Source: Acidobacteriota bacterium (lineage in GTDB: Bacteria > Acidobacteriota > JAAYUB01). Taken from it: a DNA stretch of 64,000 nt. The notes below the pieces were generated by a model that worked only from the letters and a program-made list of their open reading frames with translations, was not told the origin of the DNA and searched no databases. Shown one piece after another: positions 7,774 to 29,841 of the stretch. Made by a program: the position numbers and the translations under genes. The DNA lies in the NCBI GenBank assembly GCA_029565065.1, contig JAKQOW010000131.1, forward strand, positions 6,901 to 70,900. The letters run 5' to 3'. Numbering within the stretch: position 1 is the first letter of the stretch; the number at the start of each line of letters is the position of its first letter.

Positions 7774-10700
7774 TCACGGCGCGGTCGAGTCCTCCGGGGA
7801 CACGGCCGCCGTGTCCGTTTTCCCGAACCGGATGGTAAACCGCTCCTCCGCATGCGGTCCCTTCGCCTTCACCGCATCCCCCTTGAATACCGCCCAACCG
7901 CCCAGGTCGCGCTGGAACCGGCGGGTCATGGCGTGGAGCTGGAGTTGGGAATTGGCGGCGAACAGGTAGAGGACCCGTTTCGGGTTGAAGGGGTTGGGGA
8001 GCACGAGCACCAGCCCGTCATCCGGATCGGTGTAGACGCGATCTTGCCAGCGGAACCAGTTGCGGCCGAAGGCGGCCGGCAGACGGCCCGACTGGGCGAG
8101 ACTGGCGGCCAGCGCGTTGTCGCTGGGGCTGCCCATTACGATCAGGTCGTGCGCGGCCGTGTCCGGTGCCGAGAGCTCGCAGTCCTTATGAACCGGCGGC
8201 AGGATCTCGGCATACGCGTCGGCCAGCGTGAGGGCCCAGCGGTCGGCGGCGGAGTGGTTCGCCTCCACCTGTCGGGTGGTTCCGTAGATGATCCAGGTGT
8301 CGTGAAAGTCGTCGATGAAATTGGACCAGGTGTAATACTGTTCCCGGTTCACAGGGATGTCGAAGCCGGGGTTGAAGGTGATCGCGTCGGGTGGCTCCGC
8401 CAGCGTGAAGCGGAACTTCTGGTCCGGCGCGTCAACTTCCAGAATCTCATAGCGGATCTGCTGGCCCGTCCGGATGGCCAGGGCGGTGATGAAATGGTAC
8501 GGCGACCCGTTCTGGTGGACGCTCACGGTGAGCTCGACGCCCGAATCGGTGGGGGCGGAAACGGCCGCGGTGACTCGGGGATCCGGCAGGTCGTCCCGAT
8601 CGGTCCACTGGCGGACGAACGCCGTCAGCTCGCGATCGGCGGCCAGGCCGGCCGTCGCGATAAACTGGGCGGTGGTCATGGGTGTGTCGGCGTACTGGTC
8701 GTGCACCGCCGCCATGACGCGGGCGAACGCCGCGTTGCCCAGCAGGAGCCGGAGCTGGTGGAGCAGGTAGATGCCCTTGATGCGCGGCACCTGATACGGC
8801 GTGTAGCGGTCGTAGGCGCGGCGGGCCGCGGCAGGGGCCAGCGTGCCCTCCCGGGCGGTCAGGTACAGGTACCGGTCGTTGAGCTCGCCGAAGATCTGGC
8901 GCAACTGGGTCTCCACGTCCGCGGCCTTTTCCGGAAAATCCCGCAAGATCCGCCAGTAGGCGGCTGAGCCGGAGACGAACCAGTTCTCGGCGTCGGTGGC
9001 CGGCATCACGGTGTTGTGCCACAGCTGCTCGCGCGGGTAGGCCAGACAGCCGGCGATCGCCTGCCGATCCAGCTCCGGATCGACAGGCCGGGCCGGCGGC
9101 TCGGGTGCCAGGGCCCGGGCGGCGTGCAGCCGCTCGGTGATGACGACCGGGCTGAAGGCCGTCCAGCCCAGGGCCAGGTGCGGCTGCGCGCCCGGCAGGT
9201 CGGGGATCCAGCGACCGCCGACGGTTTTGTCCCGCAAGGTGGCCTTGCCGTGGTGCGCCAGGAAAACGAGCTGCTCGGCCATCTCGGCGGTGGTGACCTT
9301 GGCGTCGCAGGCATGGGCGCGGTTGATGGGTGAGGAGGCGGCGAGATTGGCTGCGGCGATGGAATCGATGCGGCCGTCGCCGAAGCGGCGATAGAATTCA
9401 TTGAAGGCGACGTCACGGTTCCAGGGGCCGAACGCGAGATCGTACGGGGCGTTTTCAGGGTGGGCAATATACTCCCGCGTCACCGCCGGGTCGCGGTTGT
9501 TGTTGTTGGCCCAGATGAAGTCGCGCAGGCCGCCCGGCGTGTCCGCGACGGCGGCGGCGGTGCCGGTGCGCCACAGCCGTGAGGCATGGGTGCCCAGCAG
9601 CAGGACGGCGCCCTCGTCGGTCTTGGCGTCGGCCATGGTCCAGTCGTTGGTGTACATCCCGTTGTTGTGCTCTCGCAGGATGGCGCAGGCCTCGTCGATG
9701 CTCGACGCGTACTGGGCGGCCTTGCGGATGCGGTTCGCCTGGGGTGTCCCCTCGGCGTTGAAAGGGGTCTGCCCCACGGTGGTCTCTCCGATGACGAGGC
9801 CGGCCGCGTTGATGTAAAAGTCGGCGCCGGAGTGAATGCCGCCGGGAAACGTCTGGTACACCAGCCGGTGGCCGGCGCTGGGCTGGACGTCGACGATGAT
9901 GTTCCAGTGGACGCCCGTGTAGCCGTTCCACATGAAGAGCTGGTTGAAGACGAACCGGCTGTCCGTGGTGGCCGTGCGGGTGGCCACCATGGAGGAGCAG
10001 CGGTTCCGATCGGCCGGGACGTCCATCTCCTCCTCGGGCTTCAGGAACTTCCGGCCGCTCAGCGCGTGGGGGGTGCGGTCCAGCGCGTCCTCCAGGCTGT
10101 CGAGATCGATGAAGGCGTTGATCGTCACGAGGTCCACCAGGTCCAGCGGCCGGCCGTCGTAGCGGGCACCCGCGGCGGCGGCCCCGTCGGCGATGCCGCG
10201 CATCTCCAGGAGGAACTCCTCGTCGAACCGGCGGAGGAAGAGGGCGTCCGCCATGAAGCGCAGCTGCTGCCAGCCGCGGGCCGGCTCCTGAGCGTGGCGC
10301 TGCACGGCCAGCTTGGACAGGTACTGGACGATCTCGTCGGCGACCAGCGAGCCGTACTGGAAGCCGCGGGCGTACGGTTCGCCCTCGATGTGGACGAAGG
10401 TCCAGCCCTGGTCGTCGTAGCGGTAGGCCGGCCCGTGCCAGCGGACCGTCTCCAGGGGGATGAACTCGGCGATATCCGTCACTTCCTCGAGACGCAGCTC
10501 GTCGAACCAGGCGCGGCCCGTGGCGGTGCCATTGCGGCCCAGGTGCAGCTGGACGCGGTCCACGCCCTTCGTGGCGATGAAGACCGTGCTCACCGCGGTC
10601 CAGTCGGAATCGGCGCCCACGGCCGGGGCGTGATTGGTGAAGGGGAAGGAGAGCATGCTCAGGGTGGCGGGCACGGCGGTGGGATACCGGCTGAGCGGGT

Positions 10701-11118
10701 CGGACAGTGCCCCCTCGGTCCGGATCCAGCCGCTGAGCCGGTAGATGCGCCCCACGGTCAGTCGGATCGGTTCGGAAACGACCGTGACGCGTTCCGGGCG
10801 GGGACAGTCGATGAGGAGACTGGCCGTGCCGGCGTGCCGCACGGCGGCGCTTCGGGTGACCACCGCTGCCCCGGGCGAAGCCGGCTCGGTGACCTGCCAG
10901 CCGGCGGGTGTCGCGCCTCTGCCGGCGGTCTCGAACCCGGCGTTCGTCAAGGCCGGCGGCTGGGCGGCGGCCGGCAGCGCCGGCGGCGGAGCCGCCCACA
11001 GACTGGCGGCCAGCGCAATCACGGCGGCTCCGAGAGCCGGCGATATCCGGCGTGCGCGTCTCGGGCTCGGGTGCCGTTGCAGGGGGGGAGGAACCAGGCG
11101 TCGGTCGGGTTGCATCAT
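7774..11118 (-). CDS. Large secreted multidomain protein: N-terminal CBM-like beta-sandwich (NAGFE...GWQ) and a putative C45-like Ntn-hydrolase/acyltransferase region (tentative)
   Basis: The 1114-aa product has a signal peptide and an N-terminal CBM4/9-like motif (TNAGFETAG...GWQV). A central region (...DRNRCSSMVA...NDWTMADAKTDEGAVLLLGTHAS...) is reminiscent of the C45 peptidase/acyl-CoA:6-APA acyltransferase Ntn fold. The remainder is unassigned. The domain calls were made by eye only. Confidence 0.6.
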   Translation of the reverse strand: MMQPDRRLVPPPLQRHPSPRRARRISPALGAAVIALAASLWAAPPPALPAAAQPPALTNAGFETAGRGATPAGWQVTEPASPGAAVVTRSAAVRHAGTASLLIDCPRPERVTVVSEPIRLTVGRIYRLSGWIRTEGALSDPLSRYPTAVPATLSMLSFPFTNHAPAVGADSDWTAVSTVFIATKGVDRVQLHLGRNGTATGRAWFDELRLEEVTDIAEFIPLETVRWHGPAYRYDDQGWTFVHIEGEPYARGFQYGSLVADEIVQYLSKLAVQRHAQEPARGWQQLRFMADALFLRRFDEEFLLEMRGIADGAAAAGARYDGRPLDLVDLVTINAFIDLDSLEDALDRTPHALSGRKFLKPEEEMDVPADRNRCSSMVATRTATTDSRFVFNQLFMWNGYTGVHWNIIVDVQPSAGHRLVYQTFPGGIHSGADFYINAAGLVIGETTVGQTPFNAEGTPQANRIRKAAQYASSIDEACAILREHNNGMYTNDWTMADAKTDEGAVLLLGTHASRLWRTGTAAAVADTPGGLRDFIWANNNNRDPAVTREYIAHPENAPYDLAFGPWNRDVAFNEFYRRFGDGRIDSIAAANLAASSPINRAHACDAKVTTAEMAEQLVFLAHHGKATLRDKTVGGRWIPDLPGAQPHLALGWTAFSPVVITERLHAARALAPEPPARPVDPELDRQAIAGCLAYPREQLWHNTVMPATDAENWFVSGSAAYWRILRDFPEKAADVETQLRQIFGELNDRYLYLTAREGTLAPAAARRAYDRYTPYQVPRIKGIYLLHQLRLLLGNAAFARVMAAVHDQYADTPMTTAQFIATAGLAADRELTAFVRQWTDRDDLPDPRVTAAVSAPTDSGVELTVSVHQNGSPYHFITALAIRTGQQIRYEILEVDAPDQKFRFTLAEPPDAITFNPGFDIPVNREQYYTWSNFIDDFHDTWIIYGTTRQVEANHSAADRWALTLADAYAEILPPVHKDCELSAPDTAAHDLIVMGSPSDNALAASLAQSGRLPAAFGRNWFRWQDRVYTDPDDGLVLVLPNPFNPKRVLYLFAANSQLQLHAMTRRFQRDLGGWAVFKGDAVKAKGPHAEERFTIRFGKTDTAAVSPEDSTAP

Positions 11119-13263: not shown

Positions 13264-14040
13264 TCAGGCCGGCGGCGATGGCTTTCGGGCCACCAGCAGG
13301 AGCTGGTCCGATTGGCCGGGATCGAAGGGGCGGCCGTCGTAGCCGTTCCAGCGCGCCGCCTCTTCGAACCCCGCGGCGGCCGCCATCCCGGCCAGGCTGT
13401 CGGGACCGAGGGGGCGCTGGGCGGCGGTGAGCACCTGGGTGTCCGCCCGGCCGTCATCGGCGCGGCTCACCGTGACCAGGTGCAGATCGATGACGGACTC
13501 GTGGTGGTGAAACACCCGGAGGGTGGTGACGGGGCGTCCGTCCAACTCCACGATAATCGCCGGCATGATCTTCAATCCCGCGGCGGCCACGCGGTCCCAG
13601 TTGAACACGTGCACCACCGCGATCCCGCCGGGGCGCAGCACGCGGTGCATGGCGCGCCATGCCGCCGCCACGTCGTCGTCGGTGGGCGCCAGGGTGAGGG
13701 AGTTGCCGATGCACAGGACGGCGTCGAAGGCCGCCGCCGGACCGAACGCCGCGTCCAGGCCGGTGAACGAGGCGGTTCGGAAATCGGCGGCAACGCCGGC
13801 GGCGCGGGCGTTGGTCCGGGCGGCCTCGATCATTCGCGGGGACAGGTCGGAGCCGCAGGCCTGGTATCCCCACTGGCTGAGGGCGATCACGTGCCGCCCG
13901 GTGCCGCAGGCGCAGTCGAGCACCGTCTGGACGCCCGCCCCTTCGAACAGGCGGCGCAGAAACGGCCCCTCCTTGGCCAGGCGGGTCTCCCAAGGGAACA
14001 TCCGGTCATAGATTGTCGAGAACTCGTTGAACACGGTCAT
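13264..14040 (-). CDS. Class I SAM-dependent methyltransferase
   Basis: Motif I VLDCACGTGRH is present, followed by acidic motif II and motif III (GGIAVVHVFNW). The true start is ATG at 14040 (MTVFNEF...) with a GGAG RBS. The track ORF extends upstream artefactually. Confidence 0.8.
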   Translation of the reverse strand: MTVFNEFSTIYDRMFPWETRLAKEGPFLRRLFEGAGVQTVLDCACGTGRHVIALSQWGYQACGSDLSPRMIEAARTNARAAGVAADFRTASFTGLDAAFGPAAAFDAVLCIGNSLTLAPTDDDVAAAWRAMHRVLRPGGIAVVHVFNWDRVAAAGLKIMPAIIVELDGRPVTTLRVFHHHESVIDLHLVTVSRADDGRADTQVLTAAQRPLGPDSLAGMAAAAGFEEAARWNGYDGRPFDPGQSDQLLLVARKPSPPA

Positions 14041-14131
14041 GGATTTCTCCTGACGGGGAAGCGTTCGCCAGCCGGTGTGAACGCCGGCCTGTCCCTCGTG
14101 GTTTGGGATAGGCAGAGTCGATGGCTCTGCA

Positions 14132-15346
14132 TCATGGTTGTCCGTTTCCGCCGGTTTTGATGTAGGCTTCATGACGGTTCCGGAAGATGACCTTGCAGCG
14201 GGCACAATCCCGATAGAAATGTCCGCTGAACAGACCGTCCCGATACCGCCAGGCCTCCTCGCTGTTCCAGATGGCGGGAAAGTCCTCCGCCAGCAGATTG
14301 CCGATCCGGGTCTCGCCCTCGCAGCAGAAGAACACGTCACCGTTCTCGAAAACCTGGACCTGCCGCCAGGGGTAATGGCAGGGCAGACTCATGTCGCGGC
14401 GGGGCGGCCGCCCGATGAACCGGCGGCCGTACGCCCCGATGAACCGGATCAGGCGCTCGCGGAAGAGCCGCGGATCGTCGCGGAGCATCCGCCCCGCCCG
14501 AACCACCAGCGGCGGCCGCCGCCGAAGCGGGCGCAGCTTCTGCGTCAGCCGGTGCGCGCCCCAATTGCCGCTGACGCGGGTGTTGAGCTCCGGCCACATC
14601 TCGCATTCAACGGGGATGCCGACGGTGTGGGCCGCCCGGACCTGCTCGCGCGCCAGACGGGTCAAGTCGGGATCCTGGAGGATCGATTCGGTCTGCAGTT
14701 CCCGGCTGAACACCCAGAGGCTCTTGTATTGGATCCGTGAAGCATCCAGTTCGCGGGCCAGGCGGGCCGCCGGGACGATGTCATCCAGGTTGCGCCGCAT
14801 GACGATGAATCCGATGACCAGCGTCTCCGGTTTGCCCATCTCCCGGCGCACTTCGCGGATGAAATCCAGATTGCGGCGGATCAGCGGGAACCGGCTGCCG
14901 GTCATGACCCGGTCGTAGCTGCCCACGCCGTTGAGCGAGATGTGTACCTCATTGAAAAACGGCAGCAGGCGGGCGGTGTGCTCCCGGCTGGAGAAACAGG
15001 TGCCGTTGGTGAACGTGAGGAGGTAGGCGTCGCGGTGCCACTCCCGGATTTGCGCCAGCCGGTCCAGGATCCGCCCGGCGAACAAGGGCTCGCCGCATCC
15101 GCCCAGGTTGATGATATCGGCCCGGGCGACGAGCGGCTGCAGCCAGTTGAACACCTCATCCGGCATGTCGGTGAAGGTGGCTGGATCGACTGTCGAACCC
15201 TCCATGTGGGCGTTGCACATGAAGCAGCGCAGGTTGCAGCGGCTGGTGAGATCGAGGATCAGCGAACGGGGATATTCCTCCGGCCTGGGGGTCTGGTGCC
15301 CGCCGGAGCCCGCCCGCTGCGCCTCGTGTCTGAAAGAGGGATTCAT
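14132..15346 (-). CDS. Radical SAM protein with C-terminal SPASM/twitch-type auxiliary cluster domain
   Basis: It has a CxxxCxxC radical-SAM motif (CNLRCFMC) near the N-terminus. It has a C-terminal Cys-rich segment (CHYPW...FFCCEGE...CARC) typical of SPASM domains. It is translationally coupled to the upstream B12-rSAM gene (4-nt overlap). Confidence 0.85.
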   Translation of the reverse strand: MNPSFRHEAQRAGSGGHQTPRPEEYPRSLILDLTSRCNLRCFMCNAHMEGSTVDPATFTDMPDEVFNWLQPLVARADIINLGGCGEPLFAGRILDRLAQIREWHRDAYLLTFTNGTCFSSREHTARLLPFFNEVHISLNGVGSYDRVMTGSRFPLIRRNLDFIREVRREMGKPETLVIGFIVMRRNLDDIVPAARLARELDASRIQYKSLWVFSRELQTESILQDPDLTRLAREQVRAAHTVGIPVECEMWPELNTRVSGNWGAHRLTQKLRPLRRRPPLVVRAGRMLRDDPRLFRERLIRFIGAYGRRFIGRPPRRDMSLPCHYPWRQVQVFENGDVFFCCEGETRIGNLLAEDFPAIWNSEEAWRYRDGLFSGHFYRDCARCKVIFRNRHEAYIKTGGNGQP

Positions 15347-16899
15347 CGCCGCAGGCTCTCCCGGGCGGCTTCAGACGGTCGCGCGAGCGCCGGCACGAAG
15401 AACGGCGCGTGGTTGGAAGTGAACTCGGGCGGCGTCCGGCGCAATATCTCCGCGATGGCCGGCTGCCGGTTGAACTCCCGATCCAGAAATCTCCGGACCG
15501 CCAGGCGGTCCCAGCCCAGCGGATGCCGATAATCTTCGTACAGCGACAGGTCGCCGTCGGAAAACGGCCGGGTGTCCAGCGCGGCCGCCTCATCGCACCC
15601 GCGCGGCAGGTTGAAGATGGACACGTTCAAGAAGCCGATCGCCGCCGCGTGCGCGGCCGCGAAATCCAGCGTGCGCCGGGCGGCCGGCTCCGCCTCCCAC
15701 GGCGTGCCGAACAGCAGGTAAACGTACGTCCCGATCCCCGCCTCGCGCAACCGGTGCAAGGTCAAGCCGGCCGCCGCCAGGTCGATGCCCTTGCGCATCC
15801 GGGCCAGGACGTCCGGGTCGCCGGACTCCAGCCCCAGTTGCAGCATCCGGCAACCCGACCGTCGCAGCGCGCGGCAGAAATCCGGCTCAGCCAGCTCGGG
15901 GGTGAAGCGCGCGAATCCGTACCACGGCGCACCCGGCGGATCGGCGATGAGGGCGCGGAGCGCCGCCGGGCTCAGCGCGTTGTCCAGCAGGTGGACGAGC
16001 GCCGGCCGGTATCGGGCGGCCGACTCGCGCAGGCGCGCCGCCGCGTCTGCAGGAGTCCAGGCGAGGTACCGCCGGTCCTCGGTGCGCTCGGAGCAGAAGG
16101 CGCAGCGGTTCCAGTAGCAGCCTTCCGAAAAGCTGATGCCCAGAATAAGGCCCGGCGCGAGGTATTCCTCCCCGCGGAACGGATTGAAATCCGGCACGGG
16201 AAAATCGTCCGGCTCGCCCGGCAGCTCCGCCGCCCGGAGCAGCGGGCGCTCGCCGGCGCCGGCGATCCATTCGTCAGCCAGGTCGCGGAACGGATCGGCC
16301 CACCCCGGCCTACCCAGCCATGAGCTCACCAGGCCGCCGCCCACGAGGATGCGCACACCGGGGTGGTCGCGGCGGAGAATCCCCAGCAGGGCGAACGCGC
16401 TCAGGGCCTGGTTTAGAAAATTGATGGAGAGGCCGACGATCCGCGGCGCGGTCCCGGACAGCGCGCGGTCGAGGCGCTCGCGGAAAAAGGCGCACAACGG
16501 GTGGTGCTCGGGCGCGGCGGCCTGGGCGATCAGATCGGCGCTTCGCAACGGCGACCGGGCCGGATCCGTGTAGTCGGCCAGGCGGATGCCTACGCCGGCG
16601 GCGTCGCCGTGGGCCTCCAGGAGCCGGCTCAAACCGCGGACCGCGGTGGTGTAGGTGTCCAGGCGCCGGTACGTCGTCGCGTCGCGGATCGCCGCCAGGT
16701 TGCGGTTCCGCTGCTTCACGGCCCGCCGCGTCCAGGTGTCGCCGGCCGGTGGATCCGCGCCGATGAGGTGCAGTTGCGCGTCCAGGTTGAGGTCCAGCAC
16801 CGCCGCGCGTCCGCCGGCGGCGGCGACCGCCCCGGCCAGGCGGGCGAGCCCGGCGGGCGGCTCGGACGCCTTGGTGAAGGGCGGATGAATGAGCAGCAT
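15343..16899 (-). CDS. B12-binding-domain radical SAM enzyme (class B rSAM, methyltransferase-like)
   Basis: An N-terminal cobalamin-binding Rossmann-like region is followed by the radical SAM core with CYWNRCAFC. The 518-aa length is typical of class B rSAMs. Confidence 0.85.
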   Translation of the reverse strand: MLLIHPPFTKASEPPAGLARLAGAVAAAGGRAAVLDLNLDAQLHLIGADPPAGDTWTRRAVKQRNRNLAAIRDATTYRRLDTYTTAVRGLSRLLEAHGDAAGVGIRLADYTDPARSPLRSADLIAQAAAPEHHPLCAFFRERLDRALSGTAPRIVGLSINFLNQALSAFALLGILRRDHPGVRILVGGGLVSSWLGRPGWADPFRDLADEWIAGAGERPLLRAAELPGEPDDFPVPDFNPFRGEEYLAPGLILGISFSEGCYWNRCAFCSERTEDRRYLAWTPADAAARLRESAARYRPALVHLLDNALSPAALRALIADPPGAPWYGFARFTPELAEPDFCRALRRSGCRMLQLGLESGDPDVLARMRKGIDLAAAGLTLHRLREAGIGTYVYLLFGTPWEAEPAARRTLDFAAAHAAAIGFLNVSIFNLPRGCDEAAALDTRPFSDGDLSLYEDYRHPLGWDRLAVRRFLDREFNRQPAIAEILRRTPPEFTSNHAPFFVPALARPSEAARESLRR

Positions 16900-17105
16900 G
16901 CGATGACCTCACGGCGCCGGACGGGGTCAGCGGGCGCCCGGACCGGGGATGACTACGGGGGCATTGTAGCAGAGTCGTTCGAGCCGGTGAAGCTCGCCGC
17001 GCCTCTCGGGTGTCGCCGGGATCATCCAGTGATGAGTTGACCGGCGCAGAGCCGGACTCTACAATCAGCACCATGACGGATCCAGCCAGTTTCACAGGAG
17101 GCGAC

Positions 17106-18650
17106 ATGCAGCGAGGGAGCCACCGCCGATTAGCCCGGTTCTATGTGATCGGAATCATCCTGATCCAGTTGGCGTGGGCGGCCGCGCGCTGTCCGGCCGC
17201 GCAGACAACCGGCGCCTCATCCGCCGCGGACCAGCTCGTCGCCCTGACGCACCGCATCGGAAGCGACGAGCTGATGGGAACCGTACGGGAGCTGTGCGAC
17301 CCGAAGTATGACGGCCGGCTCACGGGCACGCCCGGCTACGACGCGGCGGCCGAATGGGTGATCGACCGCTTGCGTACGTGGGGCTACCGGCCCGGCGGCG
17401 AGGACGGGCGGTGGACGCAGGATTTTCACAACCCATACACGCAGGTCATGGCGCACGGTGCGCTGGCGCTGCGGCTGCCCGCCGGCGCCGACGGTTGGAT
17501 CGAGAAAGCATACCGGTACGAGGACGAATACTACCCCGGGGCGACCTCCGGCACCGGCGAGGTCACCGCGGAGGTGATCTACGCGGGCTACGGCATCACC
17601 GCGCCGGAGCTCGGCTACGACGACTACGCCGGGGTGGACGTGCGGGGCAAGATTGTGCTCGTGGATGTTGAAGCGCCCGTGGCTCCGGACGCCGGCGCCG
17701 ACGCGTTCCTGAAGTGGCGGCCCTACAGCTTCCACCAGTACAAGGTGGCCAATGCGTGGAACCACGGCGCCGCGGGGATGCTCTACCACTATCACATCGT
17801 CAACCCAAACTGCGCCTATATTCCCGGGCTCGGCTTGACCTATGTGAGCCGCGCGGTGGTGGACGACCTGTTCGCTGGGACCGGCCGGGACTGGAAGGGC
17901 ACAGTGGCGGGCATCCGTAAAAACTTGCAGCCGGCTTCATTCGCAACAGGCAAGACGGTCCGAATGAGCAACCGCACCGAGCACCATTCGGCGGGCGTCG
18001 GCCGCACGGTGATCGGCTTTCTGGAGGGCGCCGACCCGGTGCGGCGTCATGAGACGATCGTGGTGGCGGCCCACCTGGATTTCCTGGGTCGCAACCCCGC
18101 GCTGCTGGTGGGCGCCAACGACAACGCCTCGGGCGTGGCGGTGGTGATGGCCGTGGCTCGGGCGCTGGCGCAGTCGCCGGTGCCGCCCGGCCGCTCGGTG
18201 GCGTTCGTCTTTTTCGGGGCGGAAGAGCAGGGCGTGCGGGGATCGGAATTCTACCTGGAGCAGCCGCTGTTCCCGCTGGCGCAGACCGTGGCGTGTTTGA
18301 ATTTCGACGGCGTGGGCGTCGGCGAGGAGATCCGCGTGCTCGCCGGTCTGAATTTTCCGAAACTGTGGGACTATTTCGACCGGGCCAACGGGCGCTGGGT
18401 GCACCGGACCTGCGAGCCCTCGCAGACGGCGAACCTGGGACGTCAGCGCCTGGATGCCGCGCACTTCCTGAAGGCGGGGATTCCCACGCTCTCCTTCAGC
18501 ACCGGCGGCGGGCCCGAAGGCGGCCCCCCCACCTACCACACCACCCGTGACCGGCCGGAGATTCTGAATCCGGAGATCATGGAAGACCTGGCGCGGATCG
18601 TTTTTCGCGGACTCGTGGAGCTGGCGGCGGACGACCGGCCGCTGCACTGA
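17106..18650 (+). CDS. M28 family metallopeptidase with PA (protease-associated) domain, secreted
   Basis: It has a GGAGG RBS before the ATG at 17106 and a signal peptide. The PA insert carries VRGKIVLVD. The M28 metal-binding pattern is HLDF...NDNASG...EEQG...H. The track ORF starts earlier at 17010. Confidence 0.85.
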   Translation: MQRGSHRRLARFYVIGIILIQLAWAAARCPAAQTTGASSAADQLVALTHRIGSDELMGTVRELCDPKYDGRLTGTPGYDAAAEWVIDRLRTWGYRPGGEDGRWTQDFHNPYTQVMAHGALALRLPAGADGWIEKAYRYEDEYYPGATSGTGEVTAEVIYAGYGITAPELGYDDYAGVDVRGKIVLVDVEAPVAPDAGADAFLKWRPYSFHQYKVANAWNHGAAGMLYHYHIVNPNCAYIPGLGLTYVSRAVVDDLFAGTGRDWKGTVAGIRKNLQPASFATGKTVRMSNRTEHHSAGVGRTVIGFLEGADPVRRHETIVVAAHLDFLGRNPALLVGANDNASGVAVVMAVARALAQSPVPPGRSVAFVFFGAEEQGVRGSEFYLEQPLFPLAQTVACLNFDGVGVGEEIRVLAGLNFPKLWDYFDRANGRWVHRTCEPSQTANLGRQRLDAAHFLKAGIPTLSFSTGGGPEGGPPTYHTTRDRPEILNPEIMEDLARIVFRGLVELAADDRPLH

Positions 18651-20614: not shown

Positions 20615-20659
20615 CAGCCCCGCCGTCGCTCCTTAGAATCAGATCGGGTGTTTGAGCGA

Positions 20660-20830
20660 AACCGTTGACCGGTGCCCTCGGGCGAATCGGGAAAGTGGTG
20701 CGAATCCACTGCGGGCCCGCCGCTGTGACCGGGGACGAAGGCCGCACATCGCCACTGTCCGGACGGATTCCGGATGGGAAGGCGCGGCCGGAGGACGATC
20801 CGGAAGCCAGAAGACCGGCCGGTCGATGTT
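20660..20830 (+). promoter_or_regulatory. Cobalamin (AdoCbl) riboswitch
   Basis: The sequence carries the conserved core GGTGCC..GGGAAagtGGTGcgAATCCactGCgGgCCCGCcgCTGTgAcCGG, plus GCCACTG...GGGAAGGC and the B12 box AGCCAGAAGACCGGCC (20805-20820). It is followed by a GC palindrome and a T-run, a possible attenuator. It lies directly upstream of the btuF-like gene. Confidence 0.85.
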
Positions 20831-20972
20831 TTCACTGGACTCCTCGCGGAGACAGGATACAGTGATGCCCCGCTGGCTTTCCATCCTCGCTGGCCGGCCC
20901 GATGCTTTCGGGCCGGCGCTCATTGCCGGTCAAGTCAACCGCCGTTCGGCGGGACTGCCCCTGCCACGTTCC

Positions 20973-21839
20973 ATGCGCAGCCGGTGGGCGCTGATCGCCC
21001 TGGCAGTCGCCATCTGGGCGGTGCTGCCGGCGGCGGCGCCGGCACCCGGCGCCCGCCGGGTGGTGTGTATGGCGCCCGCGTTCACCGAGATCTGCTTCGC
21101 GCTGGGCCATGGCGACGCCGTGGCCGGCGTGACCGACTACTGCGACTTTCCCGACGCCGCTCGGCGCTTGCCCCGTGTGGGCGGCTTCCTGAATCCCAAC
21201 CTCGAGGCGATCATCCGGCTTGCGCCCGATCTCGTGCTGCTGGTACCCGAGGAGGCGGAGCTGGCGCAGCGGCTGGGCGCGCTGGGGATCCGCGCCGAAG
21301 TTCTCTCCCTCTACACGCTGGCGGATATCGAGGACGCCATGCGCGTGATCGCCCGGCGGCTGGGCGACCCGGCGGCGGGCGCGGCGCTGGCGCGTTCGTG
21401 GCGTCGGGAGCTCCAGGCGGCGGCACGGGAGGGGCCGGCGGGCACGGCCCCGCGGGTGATGGTGGTCGTGGGGCGCAACCCATCCAGCCTGAACAACGTG
21501 TTCGTGGCCGGCCCGGAGACGTTTCTCGGCGAGTTGGTGCAGCTCGCGGGCGGCCGGAACGTCTACCAGGGGAAGATCCGCTATCCCAGCCTGTCCCTGG
21601 AGGGAATCGCCCACGCCGACCCCGAGGTGATCGTCGAGCTGTACCCGGGGATGAAGCTGGACGCCGCGCAGATGGCGGCGCTGGCGCGCGACTGGGACCG
21701 GCTGCCCGCACTGGCGGCCGTGCGGAGCCGGCGCGTGCATGTCCTGGCTGACGCGTATCTGGCCATCCCCGGCCCGCGGGCGGTGGCCATCGCCCGCGCC
21801 CTCCGCGAGTGCATGGCTGGGAAGGGGGATCCGCGATGA
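20973..21839 (+). CDS. btuF: Periplasmic cobalamin/siderophore-type ABC substrate-binding protein (BtuF-like)
   Basis: It has a signal peptide (MRSRWALIALAVAIWAVLPAAAP) and the class III PBP fold pattern. It is under the B12 riboswitch and is first of a btuF-D-C-like operon. An alternative start lies at 20865. Confidence 0.75.
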   Translation: MRSRWALIALAVAIWAVLPAAAPAPGARRVVCMAPAFTEICFALGHGDAVAGVTDYCDFPDAARRLPRVGGFLNPNLEAIIRLAPDLVLLVPEEAELAQRLGALGIRAEVLSLYTLADIEDAMRVIARRLGDPAAGAALARSWRRELQAAAREGPAGTAPRVMVVVGRNPSSLNNVFVAGPETFLGELVQLAGGRNVYQGKIRYPSLSLEGIAHADPEVIVELYPGMKLDAAQMAALARDWDRLPALAAVRSRRVHVLADAYLAIPGPRAVAIARALRECMAGKGDPR

Positions 21840-22633
21840 CCGGCGCGCTCCTCGATGTGATGGGCCTGGGTTACGCCCCCGAAGGGAAGCGGGTACTGGC
21901 CGACGTGTCGTTCGACGTGGGCGAGGGTGAGTTCGTCTCCGTGCTGGGGCCTAACGGGGCCGGCAAGTCGACGCTGCTCAAACACCTGAACCGCCTGCTG
22001 CCGGTCCGGGAAGGAGCGGTGCGCCTGCAGGGCCGGTCGGTGGCCGACTACGCGTTTCGCACTCTGGCCCGCCTCCAGTCGTACGTGCCGCAGGCCAAGG
22101 GCTACATCCCGCCGTACCGCGTGGCCGAGTTCCTGCTGATGAACCGGTTCCCCTACCTGCAGGCGCTGGGAGCGCCCGGACCGCGGGACCGGGCCGTCGT
22201 CGAGGACGCGCTGGCGCAGGTGGCCATGACCGAATTCCGCGACCGTTTCCTGGACACCCTGAGCGGCGGCGAGCGCCAGAAGGTGTTCATCGCCGCCGCC
22301 GTGGTCCAGGAGACGGACGTCATCCTGCTGGACGAGCCCACCACCTTCCTCGATCCGCTGCACGCGCAGGAGATTTATCAGCTCCTCGGACGGCTGCATG
22401 CGCCGGGCGGGAAAACGATTGTCATGGTCACCCACGACGTGAATGCCGCCCTGGCGCTTTCGAGCCGACTGCTCTGCCTCAAGGCAGGCCGGGCGGTGTT
22501 TTTCGGTCCGCCGGCGGATTTTCTGGCCGGCCGGATTCTCGACAGACTGTATGACACACCGTTCCGGCGCTACGAGTGCCCCGACGATCCGGCCGGGCCG
22601 CCCGCCTACCTGCCCGGGAGGTCCGCGCCATGA
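21836..22633 (+). CDS. btuD: ABC transporter ATP-binding protein (FecE/BtuD-like)
   Basis: Walker A GPNGAGKST, the ABC signature LSGGERQ, Walker B ILLDEPT and the H-loop are present. Its ATG overlaps the btuF stop (ATGA). Confidence 0.9.
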   Translation: MTGALLDVMGLGYAPEGKRVLADVSFDVGEGEFVSVLGPNGAGKSTLLKHLNRLLPVREGAVRLQGRSVADYAFRTLARLQSYVPQAKGYIPPYRVAEFLLMNRFPYLQALGAPGPRDRAVVEDALAQVAMTEFRDRFLDTLSGGERQKVFIAAAVVQETDVILLDEPTTFLDPLHAQEIYQLLGRLHAPGGKTIVMVTHDVNAALALSSRLLCLKAGRAVFFGPPADFLAGRILDRLYDTPFRRYECPDDPAGPPAYLPGRSAP

Positions 22634-23640
22634 AGCGCGCATCCCGCCGGCCGCTCTGGATCGCCGGACTCCTGGCAACGGCCCTGGTCGTGACGCTGAT
22701 CCTCGCGCTCGCGGGGACGCCGGCCATCTCGCCGGCCCGGCTGCTGGATCCCGCCTTCGCCGGGAGCGCGGACGGGCGGATCTTCTGGCAGCTTCGTCTG
22801 CCCCGCGTCCTGCTGGGCTTTCTGGCGGGTGCGGCGCTGGCCATCGGCGGAATGGTTTTTCAGGCGGTGTTCCGAAACCCGCTGGCTACGCCGTTCACGC
22901 TGGGCGTTTCCACCGGCGCCTCGTTCGGGGCCGCCGTGGCGGTGAAGCTGGGACTGGTGGCCGGGCTGCTCGGATTCTCGTCGGTCAGTCTGTTCGCGTT
23001 TCTCGGCGCCGCGCTGACCGTGGGCATCATCTATCTGCTTGCCACCGTGAAGCAGGAGTTCTCCACCGAGGTGATGCTGCTCGCGGGCGTGGCGCTGAGC
23101 TTCCTGTTCTCCTCAGCCATCCTGCTCGTCCAGTACCTGAGCGATTTCACCGGCTCCTACCAGATGGTGCGCTGGCTCATGGGCGACCTGAACGCGGTGG
23201 GGTTCCAGCGGCCGCTGCAGCTGGCGGCGGTGCTGCTGCCCGGCGCCCTGGTGGTGCGCTGGCTCTGCCTGGACCTGAACCTGATCCTGGTGGGGGATGA
23301 CTTCGCGCGCAGCCGCGGGGTGGACGTGCGGCGGGTCCGATTGGTGCTGTTCGGCGTGGTCTCGCTGCTCACGGGGGTGGTGGTCTCGTTCTGCGGGCCC
23401 ATCGGATTCATCGGGATGATGGTGCCCCACATCCTCCGGCTGCTGATCGGGGCGGAGCACCGGTGGCTCTTCTGGGGGAGCCTGCTCGGCGGCGGGATTT
23501 TTCTGGCGTGCTGCGACTGGGTGGCCCGCGGGCTCATCTTCCCGGCGGAGGTGCCGGTGGGGATCATCACGGCCCTGCTCGGGGGCCCCTTCTTCCTCTG
23601 GCTCCTCATCCGCGGCCGCTCCAGCCGGTACTTTATGTGA
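22630..23640 (+). CDS. btuC: ABC transporter permease, FecCD/BtuC family
   Basis: It has about 9-10 TM helices. The FecCD signature region is ...NPLATPFTLGVSTGASFGAA... Its ATG overlaps the ATPase stop. Confidence 0.9.
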   Translation: MKRASRRPLWIAGLLATALVVTLILALAGTPAISPARLLDPAFAGSADGRIFWQLRLPRVLLGFLAGAALAIGGMVFQAVFRNPLATPFTLGVSTGASFGAAVAVKLGLVAGLLGFSSVSLFAFLGAALTVGIIYLLATVKQEFSTEVMLLAGVALSFLFSSAILLVQYLSDFTGSYQMVRWLMGDLNAVGFQRPLQLAAVLLPGALVVRWLCLDLNLILVGDDFARSRGVDVRRVRLVLFGVVSLLTGVVVSFCGPIGFIGMMVPHILRLLIGAEHRWLFWGSLLGGGIFLACCDWVARGLIFPAEVPVGIITALLGGPFFLWLLIRGRSSRYFM

Positions 23641-23705: not shown

Positions 23706-23728
23706 GGCCGCGCCCGCCGGGCGCGGCC
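23706..23728. terminator. Perfect GC-rich palindrome (GGCCGCGCC-cgcc-GGCGCGGCC) between the convergent btuC and Fe-S genes; a possible bidirectional terminator hairpin without a clear U-tract
   Basis: A 9-bp stem with a 4-nt loop abuts the TAG stop of the minus-strand gene. Confidence 0.3.
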
Positions 23729-25068
23729 TACTGCGCGGGGAGGACCAGGGCTTCGGCGACAAGTTCGCAGACGGTCTTGATGGCGACGCCCAGTTTGTAC
23801 TCCTTGTTCAACTCGGAGAGTTGGTCCATGCAGTTGTGGCACGGCGTGGCCACAACCTTTGCGGCGGTGGCGCCGATCTGGTCCGCCTTGATCCGGCCGG
23901 CTTGCAGACGACGCTGGGCGTAACGGGTCATGGCCAGCTGGCCGCCCCCGCCGCCGCAGCAAAAATTCTTCTCCCGGTTGGGTGTCATCTCGACAAACTG
24001 CTGAACGGCGTGTCGGAGAACGAAACGCTGCGCCTCCACCACGCCGCCGAGGCGCACCAGGTTGCACGGATCGTGGAGCGTCACCGGCTCAGTGTGCTTC
24101 GACGGATCCAGCGTGATCCGGCCGTCGCGGATGTACTCCGCCAGCAACTCCAGCACGCTCCGCACCCGGAAGGGGTAGCGCTTCGACAGCCATTCGGGCG
24201 CCGCCCAGCGGTTGGCGTTGAAGCCGTGGCCGCACTCACCCAGGATCAGCTCCTGGCAGCCGAGACGCTCCACGGTCCGCACCAGCCGGTCCGACAGCTC
24301 GCCGGCAACGGGCGCCTCGCCGCTGTACAATCCGTAATTGGTCACGTCGTAGTAGTCGGTGGCCAGCGTCCAGCTCTCGCCCGCGGCGTAGAACACCTTG
24401 CCGGCGGCCAGCAGCGACAGGGGGAAGAATTTCGGCTCGCGCGGGTTGACGGTGTAGAGCATCCGCGCGCCGTGGAGGTCGAGGGGCATCCGGGCGGTCG
24501 GGTCGCCGGTTTCGGCCTGCAGCTCCTCCTCCAGCCACTGCACCGTTTCCACCCAGTCGTTCTGGGCGATGCCCATGTTGTTGCCGGTGGTGTACGCGGT
24601 GGTGATGGTGGACTGCAGCTCGGGCGGAATGAGCCCGATGGCGGTGAGCGCGGCCCGGGCCGCGGTGATCAGCGCGGTGATGTTGAGCCCCACCGAGCAG
24701 TTCAGGTTGCAGCGGCCGCAGAGCGAGCAGCGGCCGAACAGCACGTCCACCCACTCACGGGTGAGCGTCTCGTCCAGCTCCCGGGCGCCCACCCAGCCGG
24801 GGACGGTCCGGCCCAGCCGGGTGAAGTAGCGCTTGAACACCGCCATCACCAGGTTGACCTTGTAGGCCGGCGGGTTCTCCGGCTCATCCGAGGTGAGCGC
24901 ATAGTGGCAGGTGTCGGCGCACAGCCCGCAGTGGACGCAGGCGTTCAGGTCGGCGGCGCCCTGGTGCCCCAGCGCGGCGCGAAAAGTCTCGACGGCTTTC
25001 CGGATGTCGGCGGGGGTGAGTCGCCCGAGACGCTCTTCCAGGATGTCTTTGGTGGGCTCGGCGGTCAT
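23728..25068 (-). CDS. Fe-S oxidoreductase with two [4Fe-4S] ferredoxin motifs and two CCG (Cys-rich) domains, HdrD/DsrK/GlcF-like
   Basis: Motifs CVHCGLCADTCHY and CSLCGRCNLNCSV are present, then CCG domains (...DPCNL..., ...FCCGGGGGQ...). The true start is ATG at 25068 (MTAEPTK...), overlapping the stop of the upstream membrane-protein gene. The stop is TAG. Confidence 0.8.
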   Translation of the reverse strand: MTAEPTKDILEERLGRLTPADIRKAVETFRAALGHQGAADLNACVHCGLCADTCHYALTSDEPENPPAYKVNLVMAVFKRYFTRLGRTVPGWVGARELDETLTREWVDVLFGRCSLCGRCNLNCSVGLNITALITAARAALTAIGLIPPELQSTITTAYTTGNNMGIAQNDWVETVQWLEEELQAETGDPTARMPLDLHGARMLYTVNPREPKFFPLSLLAAGKVFYAAGESWTLATDYYDVTNYGLYSGEAPVAGELSDRLVRTVERLGCQELILGECGHGFNANRWAAPEWLSKRYPFRVRSVLELLAEYIRDGRITLDPSKHTEPVTLHDPCNLVRLGGVVEAQRFVLRHAVQQFVEMTPNREKNFCCGGGGGQLAMTRYAQRRLQAGRIKADQIGATAAKVVATPCHNCMDQLSELNKEYKLGVAIKTVCELVAEALVLPAQ

Positions 25069-25706: not shown

Positions 25707-25713
25707 CGGCGGT

Positions 25714-29838: not shown

Positions 29839-29841
29839 GCC

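What the first reader, a model, noticed from the sequence alone, without database searches (positions are those of the whole stretch)
13264..16899. Three-gene tailoring cassette: B12-binding radical SAM, SPASM-domain radical SAM and class I SAM methyltransferase, with no precursor peptide
The three genes are translationally coupled on the minus strand (stop/start overlaps at 15343-15346). They encode a class B (cobalamin-dependent) rSAM (CYWNRCAFC), a rSAM with a C-terminal SPASM-type Cys cluster (CNLRCFMC ... CHYPW..FFCCEGE..CARC) and a conventional SAM methyltransferase. This combination is typical of RiPP or natural-product tailoring (for example proteusin-type C-methylation/epimerisation plus N-methylation) or of lipid/cofactor modification. 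I find no convincing leader/core peptide gene or other scaffold gene within about 3 kb; the neighbours are an M28 peptidase and a beta-helix protein. The substrate is therefore unknown and may be encoded in trans.
Basis: partly seen in the sequence, partly recalled or inferred. Interest (0 to 1): 0.7.

Follow-up and report, generated by a model that had tools for sequence, protein, structure and literature searches.

The report
Patchwork radical-SAM operon, not a RiPP cluster
Three real enzyme genes (two radical-SAM enzymes and a methyltransferase) sit together in one narrow Acidobacteriota lineage, but elsewhere they occur apart, so they are a recently assembled operon of unknown substrate and not a conserved peptide-tailoring cassette.

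Summary
The three minus-strand genes are real, Pfam-supported and under purifying selection (dN/dS about 0.25 each). Two details need correcting. Only the first junction (ATGA, 15343-15346) is an overlap. The methyltransferase most likely starts at 14040, behind a 91-nt spacer with its own GGAGAA ribosome-binding site. The 'SPASM' enzyme keeps only five auxiliary cysteines, which makes it twitch-like.

The cassette is not conserved. In that family it is a free-standing gene with no recurrent neighbour. The methyltransferase is adjacent only in the window's own Acidobacteriota lineage. The twitch gene is present in only one sub-branch. Three related loci have the radical-SAM gene directly coupled to the methyltransferase, which makes the twitch gene a roughly 1.3-kb insertion.

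I found no precursor peptide, no room for a peptide-recognition domain, and no curated family that reaches its cutoff. The RiPP reading is not supported, and no characterised pathway was found either.

My best guess, weakly supported, is stepwise modification of a non-peptide metabolite, possibly sugar-like or a glycoconjugate. Cobalamin dependence is untested. The finding is ordinary radical-SAM 'dark matter' of modest interest.

The parts
16963..16991 (-). Sigma-70-like promoter (TTCACC-17 nt-TACAAT, TG-extended), about 64 nt upstream of the first gene. It lies in the roughly 206-nt divergent intergenic region shared with the M28 peptidase gene.
   Evidence: Consensus scan found 2 sites against 0.3 expected. 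Both hexamers are conserved in L085, L003, L005 and L097, while the surrounding sequence and the 32-aa ORF at 16927..17025 are not. The function of this promoter is inferred.
15343..16899 (-). Gene 1: radical-SAM enzyme (518 aa, CYWNRCAFC) with an N-terminal Rossmann/B12-binding-like domain. It belongs to a large, unannotated family that is free-standing in other genomes.
   Evidence: Pfam Radical_SAM 3e-9; B12-binding 19.9 bits, below the 32.1-bit cutoff. No NCBIfam model comes near its cutoff. There are 4837 homologues, with the top hits 51-57% identical over 97% of the length. The AF2 model has pLDDT 89. The best PDB folds are AprD4, TsrM, MgmA, OxsB and CysS, with TM 0.4-0.65. dN/dS is 0.19-0.26.
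14132..15346 (-). Gene 2: radical-SAM enzyme (404 aa, CNLRCFMC at residues 37-44) with a twitch-like C-terminal domain carrying five conserved Cys. Its ATG overlaps the stop codon of gene 1 (ATGA). The gene is a lineage-specific insertion.
   Evidence: Pfam SPASM 38.6 bits. The best NCBIfam hit, TIGR04311, scores 87.9 bits against a cutoff of 400. The conserved Cys pattern is shown. The word-indexed search found only 21 homologues. The exhaustive search of 1.84 billion representatives found 36 at E<=1e-30. The gene is absent from the syntenic loci L003, L005 and L097. dN/dS is 0.24.
14041..15396 (-). Approximate extent of the lineage-specific segment. It covers the last ~14 codons of gene 1, all of gene 2 and the 91-nt spacer. 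In SPASM-less relatives a 46-nt stretch takes its place.
   Evidence: Junction comparison of the window with L003, L005 and L097. Homology stops after ...NHAPFF(V/I)P and resumes exactly at the methyltransferase ATG.
14041..14131 (-). The 91-nt spacer between gene 2 and gene 3, with a GGAGAA ribosome-binding site at 14050..14045. No promoter-like or convincing terminator-like site was found in it.
   Evidence: Sequence read; scan. The same spacer is present in L085.
13264..14040 (-). Gene 3: class I SAM-dependent methyltransferase, 258 aa from the ATG at 14040.
   Evidence: Pfam Methyltransf_25 74 bits. The best NCBIfam hits are glycine/sarcosine N-MT (70.8 bits against 350) and daptide MT (55.5 against 175), both below cutoff. 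Orthologues are 258 aa. dN/dS is 0.23-0.33.

Best explanation
This is a recently assembled ('accreted') three-gene operon in an uncultured Acidobacteriota lineage. It is not a conserved biosynthetic cassette.

**How the operon was built**
- A sigma-70-like promoter drives gene 1.
- Gene 1 is a radical-SAM enzyme with a B12-binding-like N-terminal domain. It belongs to a very large, functionally unannotated family that is a free-standing gene in Desulfobacterota, Nitrospirota, Acidobacteriota and others.
- In this Acidobacteriota lineage a class I methyltransferase became directly coupled to gene 1.
- In one sub-branch, which includes the window, a rare twitch-type radical-SAM gene was inserted between the two.

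**Proposed mechanism (inferred, not shown)**
- The three enzymes act in sequence on a non-ribosomal cellular metabolite, not on a peptide.
- Gene 1 does the core radical step. That would be C-methylation if it really binds cobalamin, or an AprD4-like dehydration or rearrangement if it does not.
- The twitch enzyme does a BtrN/DesII-type two-electron oxidation, using its single auxiliary cluster as the electron sink.
- The methyltransferase caps a heteroatom.
- The substrate class most compatible with the scattered clues is a sugar-like small molecule or a glycoconjugate.

**What is shown and what is inferred**
- Shown: gene structure, family membership at superfamily level, distribution, the insertion, and purifying selection.
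- Inferred: co-transcription, a shared substrate, the chemistry, and cobalamin use.
For: **Structure**
- ORFs and domains.
- ATGA overlap between genes 1 and 2.
- Spacer and ribosome-binding site before gene 3.
- Conserved promoter.

**Accretion**
- Syntenic loci L003/L005 (86% identity) have the gene 1 stop overlapping the methyltransferase start. In L097 (72% identity) the methyltransferase starts 5 nt after that stop. None of the three has a twitch gene.
- P0004 and P0144 appear to share one 3302-bp contig, which is too short to hold all three genes (inference).
- The three-gene form is seen only in L085-L088, the P0001/P0123 contig and the window.

**Independence of the three families**
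- Eighty genome loci carrying gene 1 orthologues show no recurrent neighbour. The commonest coupled neighbours are an HI0933-like flavoprotein (3 loci), an APH kinase (3), MatE (2) and HhH-GPD (2).
- Methyltransferase orthologues at 57-59% identity in G. pickeringii and another Acidobacterium are not near any rSAM.
- Twitch homologues are found alone (L093, L094) or in other contexts.

**All three genes are maintained**
- dN/dS is about 0.25 for each.

**Clues to a non-peptide, possibly sugar-related substrate**
- The best solved relative of gene 1 is the aminoglycoside diol-dehydratase AprD4.
- Twitch-fold neighbours include DesII, BlsE and BtrN.
- Twitch homologues sit next to a GT2 glycosyltransferase plus another B12-rSAM (L091), and next to a polytopic membrane protein with weak GT87 similarity (L089).
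- Gene 1 orthologues in some Geobacter are translationally coupled to an APH-family small-molecule kinase.

**Cobalamin supply**
- A cobalamin riboswitch plus a BtuFCD-like importer lies 3.7 kb away, and this synteny is conserved.
Against: - No substrate, product or pathway has been identified.
- The sugar/glycoconjugate clues are individually weak. The Foldseek lists also contain RiPP maturases (SuiB, SkfB, CteB) at equal scores. The GT87 hit has E = 0.002 and is below its cutoff. The APH pairing occurs in only 7-8 of about 80 loci.
- Because each gene occurs alone elsewhere, the three products may not share a substrate at all.
- The B12-binding Pfam hit of the window protein is sub-threshold, and the top structural match, AprD4, does not use cobalamin (my knowledge of the AprD4 literature). 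Methylation chemistry is therefore not established.
- Co-transcription was not measured.
Confidence: 0.5

Rival explanations
1. RiPP or proteusin-like tailoring cassette whose precursor peptide is encoded in trans. The B12-rSAM would C-methylate the peptide, the SPASM-type rSAM would cross-link or epimerise it, and the methyltransferase would N- or O-methylate it.
For: - The best (sub-threshold) NCBIfam hit of gene 1 is TIGR03975, a RiPP C-methyltransferase family (57.7 bits). The methyltransferase weakly resembles the daptide MTase.
- Foldseek neighbours of gene 2 include SuiB, SkfB and CteB.
- An M28 peptidase gene is transcribed divergently from the operon.
Against: - Every RiPP model is far below its cutoff (57.7 bits against 281.85; 55.5 against 175).
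- There is no conserved small ORF in the promoter region or the spacer.
- The twitch enzyme has only 36 residues before its CX3CX2C motif, so it has no RRE/PqqD-like domain.
- Gene 1 orthologues are single free-standing genes in hundreds of species, with no RiPP-type neighbours.
- The M28 peptidase has an N-terminal hydrophobic segment consistent with a signal peptide or membrane anchor, and it is adjacent only in this lineage.
- The rest of the window is housekeeping: efflux, a kinase, a Btu-like importer, DsrC, and a complex-I/Mrp-like operon.
Confidence: 0.07
2. Three functionally unrelated genes that merely share a transcript. Gene 1 does its widespread housekeeping job. The methyltransferase and the inserted twitch rSAM act on other substrates.
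For: - Each family occurs independently elsewhere.
- The twitch gene arrived by insertion.
- The methyltransferase of L097 is 92% identical to the window's, while its gene 1 is only 72% identical. This suggests the two genes have separate histories.
Against: - The 4-bp overlaps (gene 1/MT in L003; gene 1/twitch in the window) indicate tight expression coupling.
- The gene 1/methyltransferase pairing persists across at least three diverged sub-lineages (72-92% identity).
- An independent pairing of a twitch homologue with a B12-rSAM exists in L091.
Confidence: 0.25
3. Membrane-lipid modification, for example methylation or cross-linking of hopanoids, branched tetraethers or fatty-acyl chains, as with HpnP/HpnR, Gmm/Grs or Tes/Mss.
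For: - There are weak NCBIfam hits to HpnR, HpnJ and the 'ladderane' lipid B12-rSAM for gene 1, and to Tes for gene 2.
- The taxa carrying gene 1 (Acidobacteriota, Desulfobacterota, Nitrospirota) overlap with proposed producers of unusual bacterial lipids (PMC13159169).
- A GDGT-MAS structure appears among the fold hits of gene 2.
Against: - The scores are tiny against the cutoffs: HpnR 27 bits against 650, TIGR04072 22 against 360, Tes 16 against 450.
- No lipid-synthesis gene was seen among the annotated or recurrent neighbours, either in the window or in the sampled loci.
Confidence: 0.12
4. Post-translational modification of a housekeeping protein by gene 1, by analogy with Mmp10 or MgmA/QCMT acting on methyl-coenzyme M reductase. 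This would explain why gene 1 is usually alone.
For: - MgmA (9ccb) is among the top structural matches.
- Free-standing, widely conserved genes with no fixed neighbour are typical of protein- or RNA-modifying enzymes (inference).
Against: - No candidate target has been identified.
- The similarity to MgmA is no better than to the small-molecule enzymes AprD4, OxsB and CysS.
- The APH-kinase and methyltransferase partners fit small molecules better.
Confidence: 0.06

Closest known systems
AprD4 (PDB 6fd2), radical-SAM 1,2-diol dehydratase of apramycin biosynthesis
   Same: It is the best sequence and fold match to gene 1: profile E = 1.7e-15 over the rSAM core, and Foldseek TM 0.56-0.65 over both domains. 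Both have an N-terminal Rossmann-like domain followed by a partial TIM-barrel rSAM core.
   Different: Identity is only about 16%. The NCBIfam AprD4 model scores 34 bits against a cutoff of 500. AprD4 sits in an aminoglycoside gene cluster next to its reductase partner, whereas gene 1 has no such context. AprD4 does not use cobalamin (my knowledge), so the resemblance argues neither for nor against methylation.
Cobalamin-dependent (class B) radical-SAM enzymes: TsrM, OxsB, CysS, MgmA/QCMT, PhpK, PoyB/C-type RiPP C-methyltransferases
   Same: The domain order and fold are the same. There are weak HMM hits to TIGR03975 and to the PhpK family. About one fifth of the listed family members carry a precomputed PF02310 hit.
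   Different: All scores are far below the family cutoffs. Gene 1 has a roughly 100-residue helical insertion (residues ~37-150) inside the N-terminal domain. There is no biosynthetic-cluster context. Cobalamin binding is untested.
Twitch-domain radical-SAM enzymes (BtrN, DesII, BlsE, SkfB, MoaA)
   Same: Gene 2 has a short N-terminus, a CX3CX2C core and a C-terminal beta-hairpin domain whose Cys set is enough for one auxiliary cluster.
   Different: Identity is 13-19%. Gene 2 has an extra adjacent Cys (CC) and a roughly 65-residue Arg-rich, poorly predicted linker (residues ~255-320) between the core and the twitch domain. No curated family matches: TIGR04311 scores 88 bits against 400.
Full SPASM maturases (anSME, PqqE, SuiB, CteB)
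   Same: The Pfam SPASM model matches at 38.6 bits, and the fold is similar, with TM about 0.5.
   Different: The CX2CX5CX3C...C half of the seven-Cys motif is reduced to CX2C. There is no RRE domain and no adjacent peptide or sulfatase substrate gene.
Glycine/sarcosine N-methyltransferase and daptide methyltransferase (class I SAM MTs)
   Same: These are the best NCBIfam hits for gene 3. The Rossmann-fold SAM-binding core is clearly present.
   Different: The scores are 70.8 bits against 350 and 55.5 against 175, so gene 3 is not a member of either family. Its 50-60% identical orthologues in Geobacter and another Acidobacterium are unannotated stand-alone genes.

Membership tests
Radical SAM superfamily (genes 1 and 2) | CX3CX2C cluster motif within a Radical_SAM (PF04055) core | tested here: met
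   Gene 1 has CYWNRCAFC and scores 37.7 bits, above the 29.5-bit cutoff. Gene 2 has CNLRCFMC and scores 26.7 bits (E = 7e-6), slightly below the cutoff. In gene 2 the motif is invariant in homologues and the fold is confirmed.
Class B (cobalamin-dependent) radical SAM | N-terminal Rossmann-type B12-binding domain | tested here: inconclusive
   PF02310 scores 19.9 bits against a 32.1-bit cutoff for the window protein. Some homologues carry a precomputed PF02310 hit. The fold resembles TsrM, OxsB and CysS, but resembles AprD4 best.
Class B (cobalamin-dependent) radical SAM | Actually binds cobalamin and uses it in catalysis | not testable with these tools
   No sequence motif is diagnostic, because known members bind the cofactor base-off without a His ligand and use varied residues (PMC13331322). 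The nearby cobalamin riboswitch and Btu-like importer are only circumstantial.
RiPP maturation radical-SAM C-methyltransferase (TIGR03975, proteusin type) | HMM score at or above the curated cutoff | tested here: not met
   57.7 bits against a cutoff of 281.85.
RiPP maturation radical-SAM C-methyltransferase (TIGR03975, proteusin type) | Adjacent precursor peptide (NHLP/Nif11 or other) and RiPP-type neighbours conserved across orthologues | tested here: not met
   There is no conserved small ORF. Eighty orthologous loci show no recurrent neighbour. Only the window was searched, not the whole genome.
SPASM domain (two auxiliary clusters) | Seven-Cys motif CX9-15GX4C ... CX2CX5CX3C ... C | tested here: not met
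   Only C323, C341, C342, C381 and C384 are conserved, that is CX12GX4CC ... CX2C. The Pfam SPASM model still matches, as it does for twitch domains.
Twitch-domain radical SAM | Truncated SPASM domain with ligands for one auxiliary cluster | tested here: met
   The Cys count and spacing fit. A beta-hairpin plus helix is predicted at residues 325-395. BtrN, SkfB, BlsE and DesII are among the fold hits. The definition comes from PMC9012708. Cluster content itself was not measured.
RiPP rSAM-SPASM maturases | N-terminal RiPP recognition element (PqqD-like) or a separate RRE partner | tested here: not met
   The rSAM motif starts at residue 37, and residues 1-19 are predicted disordered. No PqqD or RRE Pfam hit was found in any of the nine local proteins.
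TIGR04311 rSAM_Geo_metal (putative metalloenzyme maturase) | HMM score at or above the curated cutoff | tested here: not met
   87.9 bits against a cutoff of 400. Only the N-terminal half aligns.
Lipid-modifying rSAMs (HpnR, HpnJ, TIGR04072, Tes) | HMM score at or above the curated cutoff, and lipid-gene context | tested here: not met
   Scores are 27.4 bits against 650, 30.7 against 577.6, 22.4 against 360, and 16.3 against 450. No lipid genes were seen nearby.
Class I SAM-dependent methyltransferase | Methyltransf_25/11 Rossmann SAM-binding domain | tested here: met
   74.4 and 62.2 bits, above the cutoffs of 27 and 21.2.
Glycine/sarcosine N-methyltransferase (NF051855) | HMM score at or above the curated cutoff | tested here: not met
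   70.8 bits against a cutoff of 350.
Anti-phage defence systems (PADLOC) | Specific match to a defence-system protein model | tested here: not met
   Only generic domain-level hits were found: pVip 26.7 bits on the rSAM core, and mad2 64 bits on the methyltransferase domain.

The most novel reading that the evidence does not exclude
The free-standing B12-domain radical-SAM family to which gene 1 belongs gave 598 matching stretches in a species-representative genome scan (Desulfobacterota, Nitrospirota, Acidobacteriota, Rokubacteria). It has about 50% identity across phyla and more than 100 invariant residues. It could be an unrecognised housekeeping enzyme that makes a still-undescribed modification of a common metabolite, lipid, cofactor or protein in anaerobes. 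On that reading, the Acidobacteriota operon (plus methyltransferase, plus twitch rSAM) and the Geobacter pairing with an APH-type kinase are natural experiments showing that its product is further derivatised. They would give a handle for finding the substrate.
Probability: 0.25. Interest if true: 0.55.

Novelty: new member of a known kind. Interest (0 to 1): 0.3.

Why it matters
The finding has little importance as a 'cassette'. It is a lineage-specific juxtaposition of enzymes from well-known superfamilies, and nothing points to a new kind of system.

What may be useful is the by-product. Gene 1 represents a very large, strongly conserved, completely unannotated radical-SAM family. Some members are in cultured Geobacter relatives, which could allow a knockout. 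The two alternative coupled partners, a methyltransferase in this lineage and an APH-like kinase in Geobacter, narrow the search for its substrate.

The case also shows that an adjacent B12-rSAM, SPASM-type rSAM and methyltransferase should not be read as a RiPP cluster unless conservation of the arrangement has been checked.

Tried and rejected
**Curated family assignment.** No NCBIfam model reached its cutoff for any of the three proteins. PADLOC gave only generic domain hits.

**Conserved-neighbour analysis of gene 1.**
- tblastn of nine window proteins against 84 loci.
- All-against-all clustering of flanking ORFs.
- Pfam scans of tightly coupled upstream and downstream ORFs.
- No partner occurred in more than about 10% of loci. 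The top ORF 'clusters' were antisense ORFs inside gene 1 itself.

**Precursor search.** The only small ORF in the promoter region (16927..17025, 32 aa) is not conserved. The 91-nt spacer holds none. There is no riboswitch or other RNA family within 11-20 kb.

**Literature.** Searches on bacterial lipid rSAMs (Mss/Ger, brGDGT, archaeal GDGT methylases) and on B12-rSAMs in Geobacter found no characterised member of this family.

**Structure-based assignment.** Both models gave only superfamily-level matches (TM <= 0.65) that mix peptide and small-molecule enzymes.

**A methyltransferase neighbour in other lineages.** The ORF downstream of gene 1 in L039 is unrelated to the window methyltransferase. 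L038 has a 706-aa downstream protein with only marginal similarity to it (E = 0.011), and L098 has a non-orthologous methyltransferase on the opposite strand. I treated these as chance, given how common class I methyltransferases are.

**Mobile-element origin of the insertion.** I saw no repeats or mobility genes at the junctions, and the codon composition (third-position GC 0.85) matches the neighbours. The source of the twitch gene remains unknown.

Full report
**1. What is in the sequence**

On the minus strand there are three consecutive ORFs: 15343..16899 (518 aa), 14132..15346 (404 aa) and 13264..14340.
- Their third-codon-position GC is 0.82-0.88, the same as the neighbouring genes.
  - Gene 1: Radical_SAM (E = 3e-9), plus a sub-threshold B12-binding hit (19.9 bits against a cutoff of 32.1).
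  - Gene 2: SPASM (E = 1.3e-9) and Radical_SAM (E = 7e-6).
  - Gene 3: Methyltransf_25 (E = 1.2e-20).
- The ATGA stop/start overlap at 15343-15346 is real.
- The 14340 GTG start of gene 3 would overlap gene 2 by 209 nt. Orthologues are 258 aa, and an ATG at 14040 is preceded by GGAGAA. Gene 3 is therefore 13264..14040, and a 91-nt spacer separates it from gene 2.
- A sigma-70-like promoter (TTCACC-17-TACAAT, 16991..16963) lies about 64 nt upstream of gene 1. Its hexamers are conserved in four related loci, while the surrounding sequence is not.
- Against the orthologues in L085, dN/dS is 0.25, 0.24 and 0.23 for the three genes. All three are functional genes.

**2. The 'SPASM' enzyme is twitch-like**

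- Across ten homologues the only conserved C-terminal cysteines are C323, C341, C342, C381 and C384, that is CX12GX4CC ... CX2C. The CX5CX3C...C part of the seven-Cys SPASM motif is missing.
- A twitch domain is defined as a truncated SPASM domain that binds one auxiliary cluster (PMC9012708).
- The CX3CX2C motif begins at residue 37, and residues 1-19 are predicted disordered. That leaves no room for a RiPP recognition element.
- Foldseek gives only superfamily-level matches (TM about 0.5-0.6). They mix peptide maturases (SuiB, SkfB, CteB, anSME) with sugar or small-molecule enzymes (DesII, BlsE, BtrN, MoaA, viperin).

**3. Gene 1 belongs to a very large, unannotated, free-standing family**

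- The word-indexed protein search returned 4837 homologues. The best 120 are 51-57% identical over about 97% of the length, apart from a few closer Acidobacteriota sequences. The only names given are 'radical SAM protein' or 'B12-binding domain-containing radical SAM protein'.
- An alignment of 26 members has more than 100 invariant positions.
The loci come from Geobacterales, Desulfuromonadales, Syntrophales, Desulfobulbales, Nitrospirota, Acidobacteriota and Rokubacteria.
- No NCBIfam model approaches its cutoff. The best are TIGR03975 (57.7 bits against 281.85) and the PhpK family (56.2 against 600).
- The closest solved structure, by sequence profile and by fold, is AprD4. TsrM, MgmA, OxsB and CysS follow, all at about 16-20% identity.
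- Class B architecture is therefore plausible. Cobalamin use cannot be decided from sequence (PMC13331322).

**4. The cassette is not conserved**

- *Gene 1 orthologues elsewhere.* I searched the flanks of 80 orthologous loci with all nine local window proteins. I also clustered every flanking ORF, and I ran Pfam on the ORFs that are tightly coupled upstream or downstream. Nothing recurs. The commonest coupled neighbours are an HI0933-like flavoprotein (3 loci), an APH-family kinase (3 by Pfam, 7-8 within 5 kb by tblastn), MatE (2) and HhH-GPD (2).
- *Where the window's neighbours are found.* The methyltransferase and the M28 peptidase are adjacent to gene 1 only in the window's own Acidobacteriota lineage.
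- *Methyltransferase orthologues.* Those in Geobacter pickeringii (57% identity) and in another Acidobacterium (59%) are not near any radical-SAM gene.
- *The twitch family is small.* The word-indexed search found 21 hits. An exhaustive HMMER search of 1.84 billion representatives found 36 at E<=1e-30.
- *Twitch family contexts differ*:
  - L093 and L094: the gene stands alone.
  - L095: it is next to a cNMP-binding protein and a second SPASM enzyme.
  - L089: it is next to a polytopic membrane protein with weak GT87 similarity, near M16 peptidases and another SPASM enzyme.
  - L091 (33% identity): it is next to a different B12-rSAM and a GT2 glycosyltransferase.

**5. The twitch gene is a recent insertion**

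- The syntenic loci L003/L005 (gene 1 86% identical) and L097 (72%) share the same flanking genes as the window where their contigs extend far enough: L003/L005 on both sides, L097 (a 4.4-kb contig) only the upstream M28 gene. In L003/L005 the gene 1 stop overlaps the methyltransferase start. In L097 the methyltransferase starts 5 nt after that stop. None has a twitch gene.
- A third such lineage is likely. P0004 and P0144 appear to share a 3302-bp contig that is too short to hold three genes (inference).
- The three-gene form occurs only in the window, in L085-L088 and in the P0001/P0123 contig.
- Homology between the two forms stops after ...NHAPFF(V/I)P and resumes exactly at the methyltransferase ATG. 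About 1356 nt (14041..15396) replace 46 nt.
- A single gain is more parsimonious than two or three losses. A formal phylogeny was not built.

**6. Tests of the RiPP reading**

- There is no conserved small ORF in the promoter region or the spacer.
- There is no RRE domain.
- RiPP HMMs are far below their cutoffs.
- There are no RiPP-type neighbours, either in the window or around orthologues.
- The rest of the window is ordinary chromosome: an efflux pump, a Ser/Thr kinase, an MFS transporter, a C45 hydrolase, Tag glycosylase, a Btu-like importer, a DsrC/HdrD-like pair, a glycoside hydrolase, and a complex-I/Mrp-like operon.
- The M28 peptidase has an N-terminal hydrophobic segment consistent with a signal peptide or membrane anchor, plus a PA domain. 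That is consistent with a secreted aminopeptidase.
- A precursor encoded elsewhere in the genome cannot be excluded from a 64-kb window. Even so, the distribution data make this reading unlikely (about 0.07).

**7. Most likely function**

What is shown is an operon-like arrangement built by accretion around a widely conserved orphan radical-SAM enzyme. What follows is inference.
- The enzymes probably act in sequence on a non-peptide metabolite.
- The clues toward a sugar-like molecule or glycoconjugate are these:
  - AprD4 is the best relative of gene 1.
  - BtrN, DesII and BlsE are among the relatives of gene 2.
  - Glycosyltransferases sit next to two twitch homologues.
  - An APH-type small-molecule kinase is coupled to gene 1 in some Geobacter.
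- Each clue is weak on its own. A serious rival (about 0.25) is that the three genes share only a transcript. Lipid modification (about 0.12) and protein modification (about 0.06) are not excluded.
- A cobalamin riboswitch (20653..20837, 120 bits) followed by a BtuFCD-like importer lies 3.7 kb from gene 1, and this arrangement is conserved in relatives. That shows the organism imports cobalamin. It does not show that gene 1 uses it.

**8. Novelty and verdict**

- Nothing here is a new kind of system. The genes are new, uncharacterised members of known superfamilies in a lineage-specific arrangement.
The premise of a conserved tailoring cassette is not supported.
- Interest is modest (0.3). It rests mainly on the size and conservation of the orphan family of gene 1, and on the fact that cultured Geobacter relatives carry it.

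Noticed in passing
window 20653..20837 (+) and 20900..23640 (+): A cobalamin riboswitch (RF00174, 120 bits, E = 1.4e-29) sits directly upstream of a BtuF/BtuD/BtuC-like ABC importer (Peripla_BP_2, ABC_tran, FecCD). The mechanical ORF start at 20652 overlaps the riboswitch, so the binding-protein gene must start later. The unit lies 3.7 kb from the B12-domain rSAM, and this synteny is kept in L003 and L085.
   Followed up: partly
window 16900..17106: The roughly 206-nt divergent intergenic region holds two sigma-70-like promoters: minus strand 16991..16963 and plus strand 17037..17065. The M28 peptidase probably starts at ATG 17106 (relatives are 514 aa) and not at the GTG at 17010.
   Followed up: partly
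L001, L011, L019, L031, L034, L038, L098 (downstream of the gene 1 orthologue): A 328-aa APH-family (PF01636) kinase, 71-93% identical among these loci, is coupled to or lies near the gene 1 orthologue in a Geobacter-type subgroup. In L098 the two genes overlap by 4 bp. In L001 a MazE/PIN pair is inserted between them. In L038 a 706-aa protein with only marginal similarity to the window methyltransferase (E = 0.011) lies between them.
   Followed up: partly
L097 3824..4393, compared with L003 11551..12327: Divergence is discordant. The L097 methyltransferase fragment is 92% identical to the window's, while its gene 1 is only 72% identical. L003 is 85% and 86% identical for the same two genes. 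This suggests recombination or separate histories of the two genes.
   Followed up: no
L089 5590..17188: A 57%-identical twitch homologue sits in a different cluster. That cluster holds an FGE-sulfatase-domain protein, a 570-aa polytopic membrane protein (weak GT87 hit, E = 0.002), two M16 peptidases, a 931-aa protein with no Pfam hit, and a second rSAM-SPASM enzyme.
   Followed up: partly
L091 8001..11557: A 33%-identical twitch homologue is followed at a 3-nt gap by a different B12-binding rSAM (477 aa) and then an overlapping GT2 glycosyltransferase. This is an independent pairing of a twitch rSAM with a B12-rSAM.
   Followed up: partly
L016, L025, L033, L041, L057, L058, L069, L077 (about 5.6 kb upstream of the gene 1 orthologue, opposite strand): A second, canonical B12-binding rSAM (about 513 aa) recurs near the gene 1 orthologue in a Geobacteraceae subgroup. 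It is 26-29% identical to the B12-rSAM of L091.
   Followed up: no
window 7774..11118 (-), compared with L003 14480..18520: The C45/phospholipase-B-like protein is 1114 aa in the window and 1346 aa in L003, where it has an extra C-terminal FGE-sulfatase domain. L085 also has an MFS gene in this region that L003 lacks.
   Followed up: no
window 23728..26040 (-) and 28387..37388 (+): An HdrD/DsrK-like CCG/4Fe-4S protein, a 213-aa protein with no Pfam hit and a DsrC gene form a small cluster. Downstream is a multi-gene complex-I/Mrp-like operon (three Proton_antipo_M subunits, plus homologues of the NuoJ, K, A, B and C subunits).
   Followed up: no
window 14390..14580 (gene 2, residues ~255-320): An Arg-rich linker of about 65 residues lies between the rSAM core and the twitch domain. 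It is poorly predicted (pLDDT below 50 for residues 266-277 and 307-319). It is present in the close homologues and variable in the distant ones, and its role is unknown.
   Followed up: no
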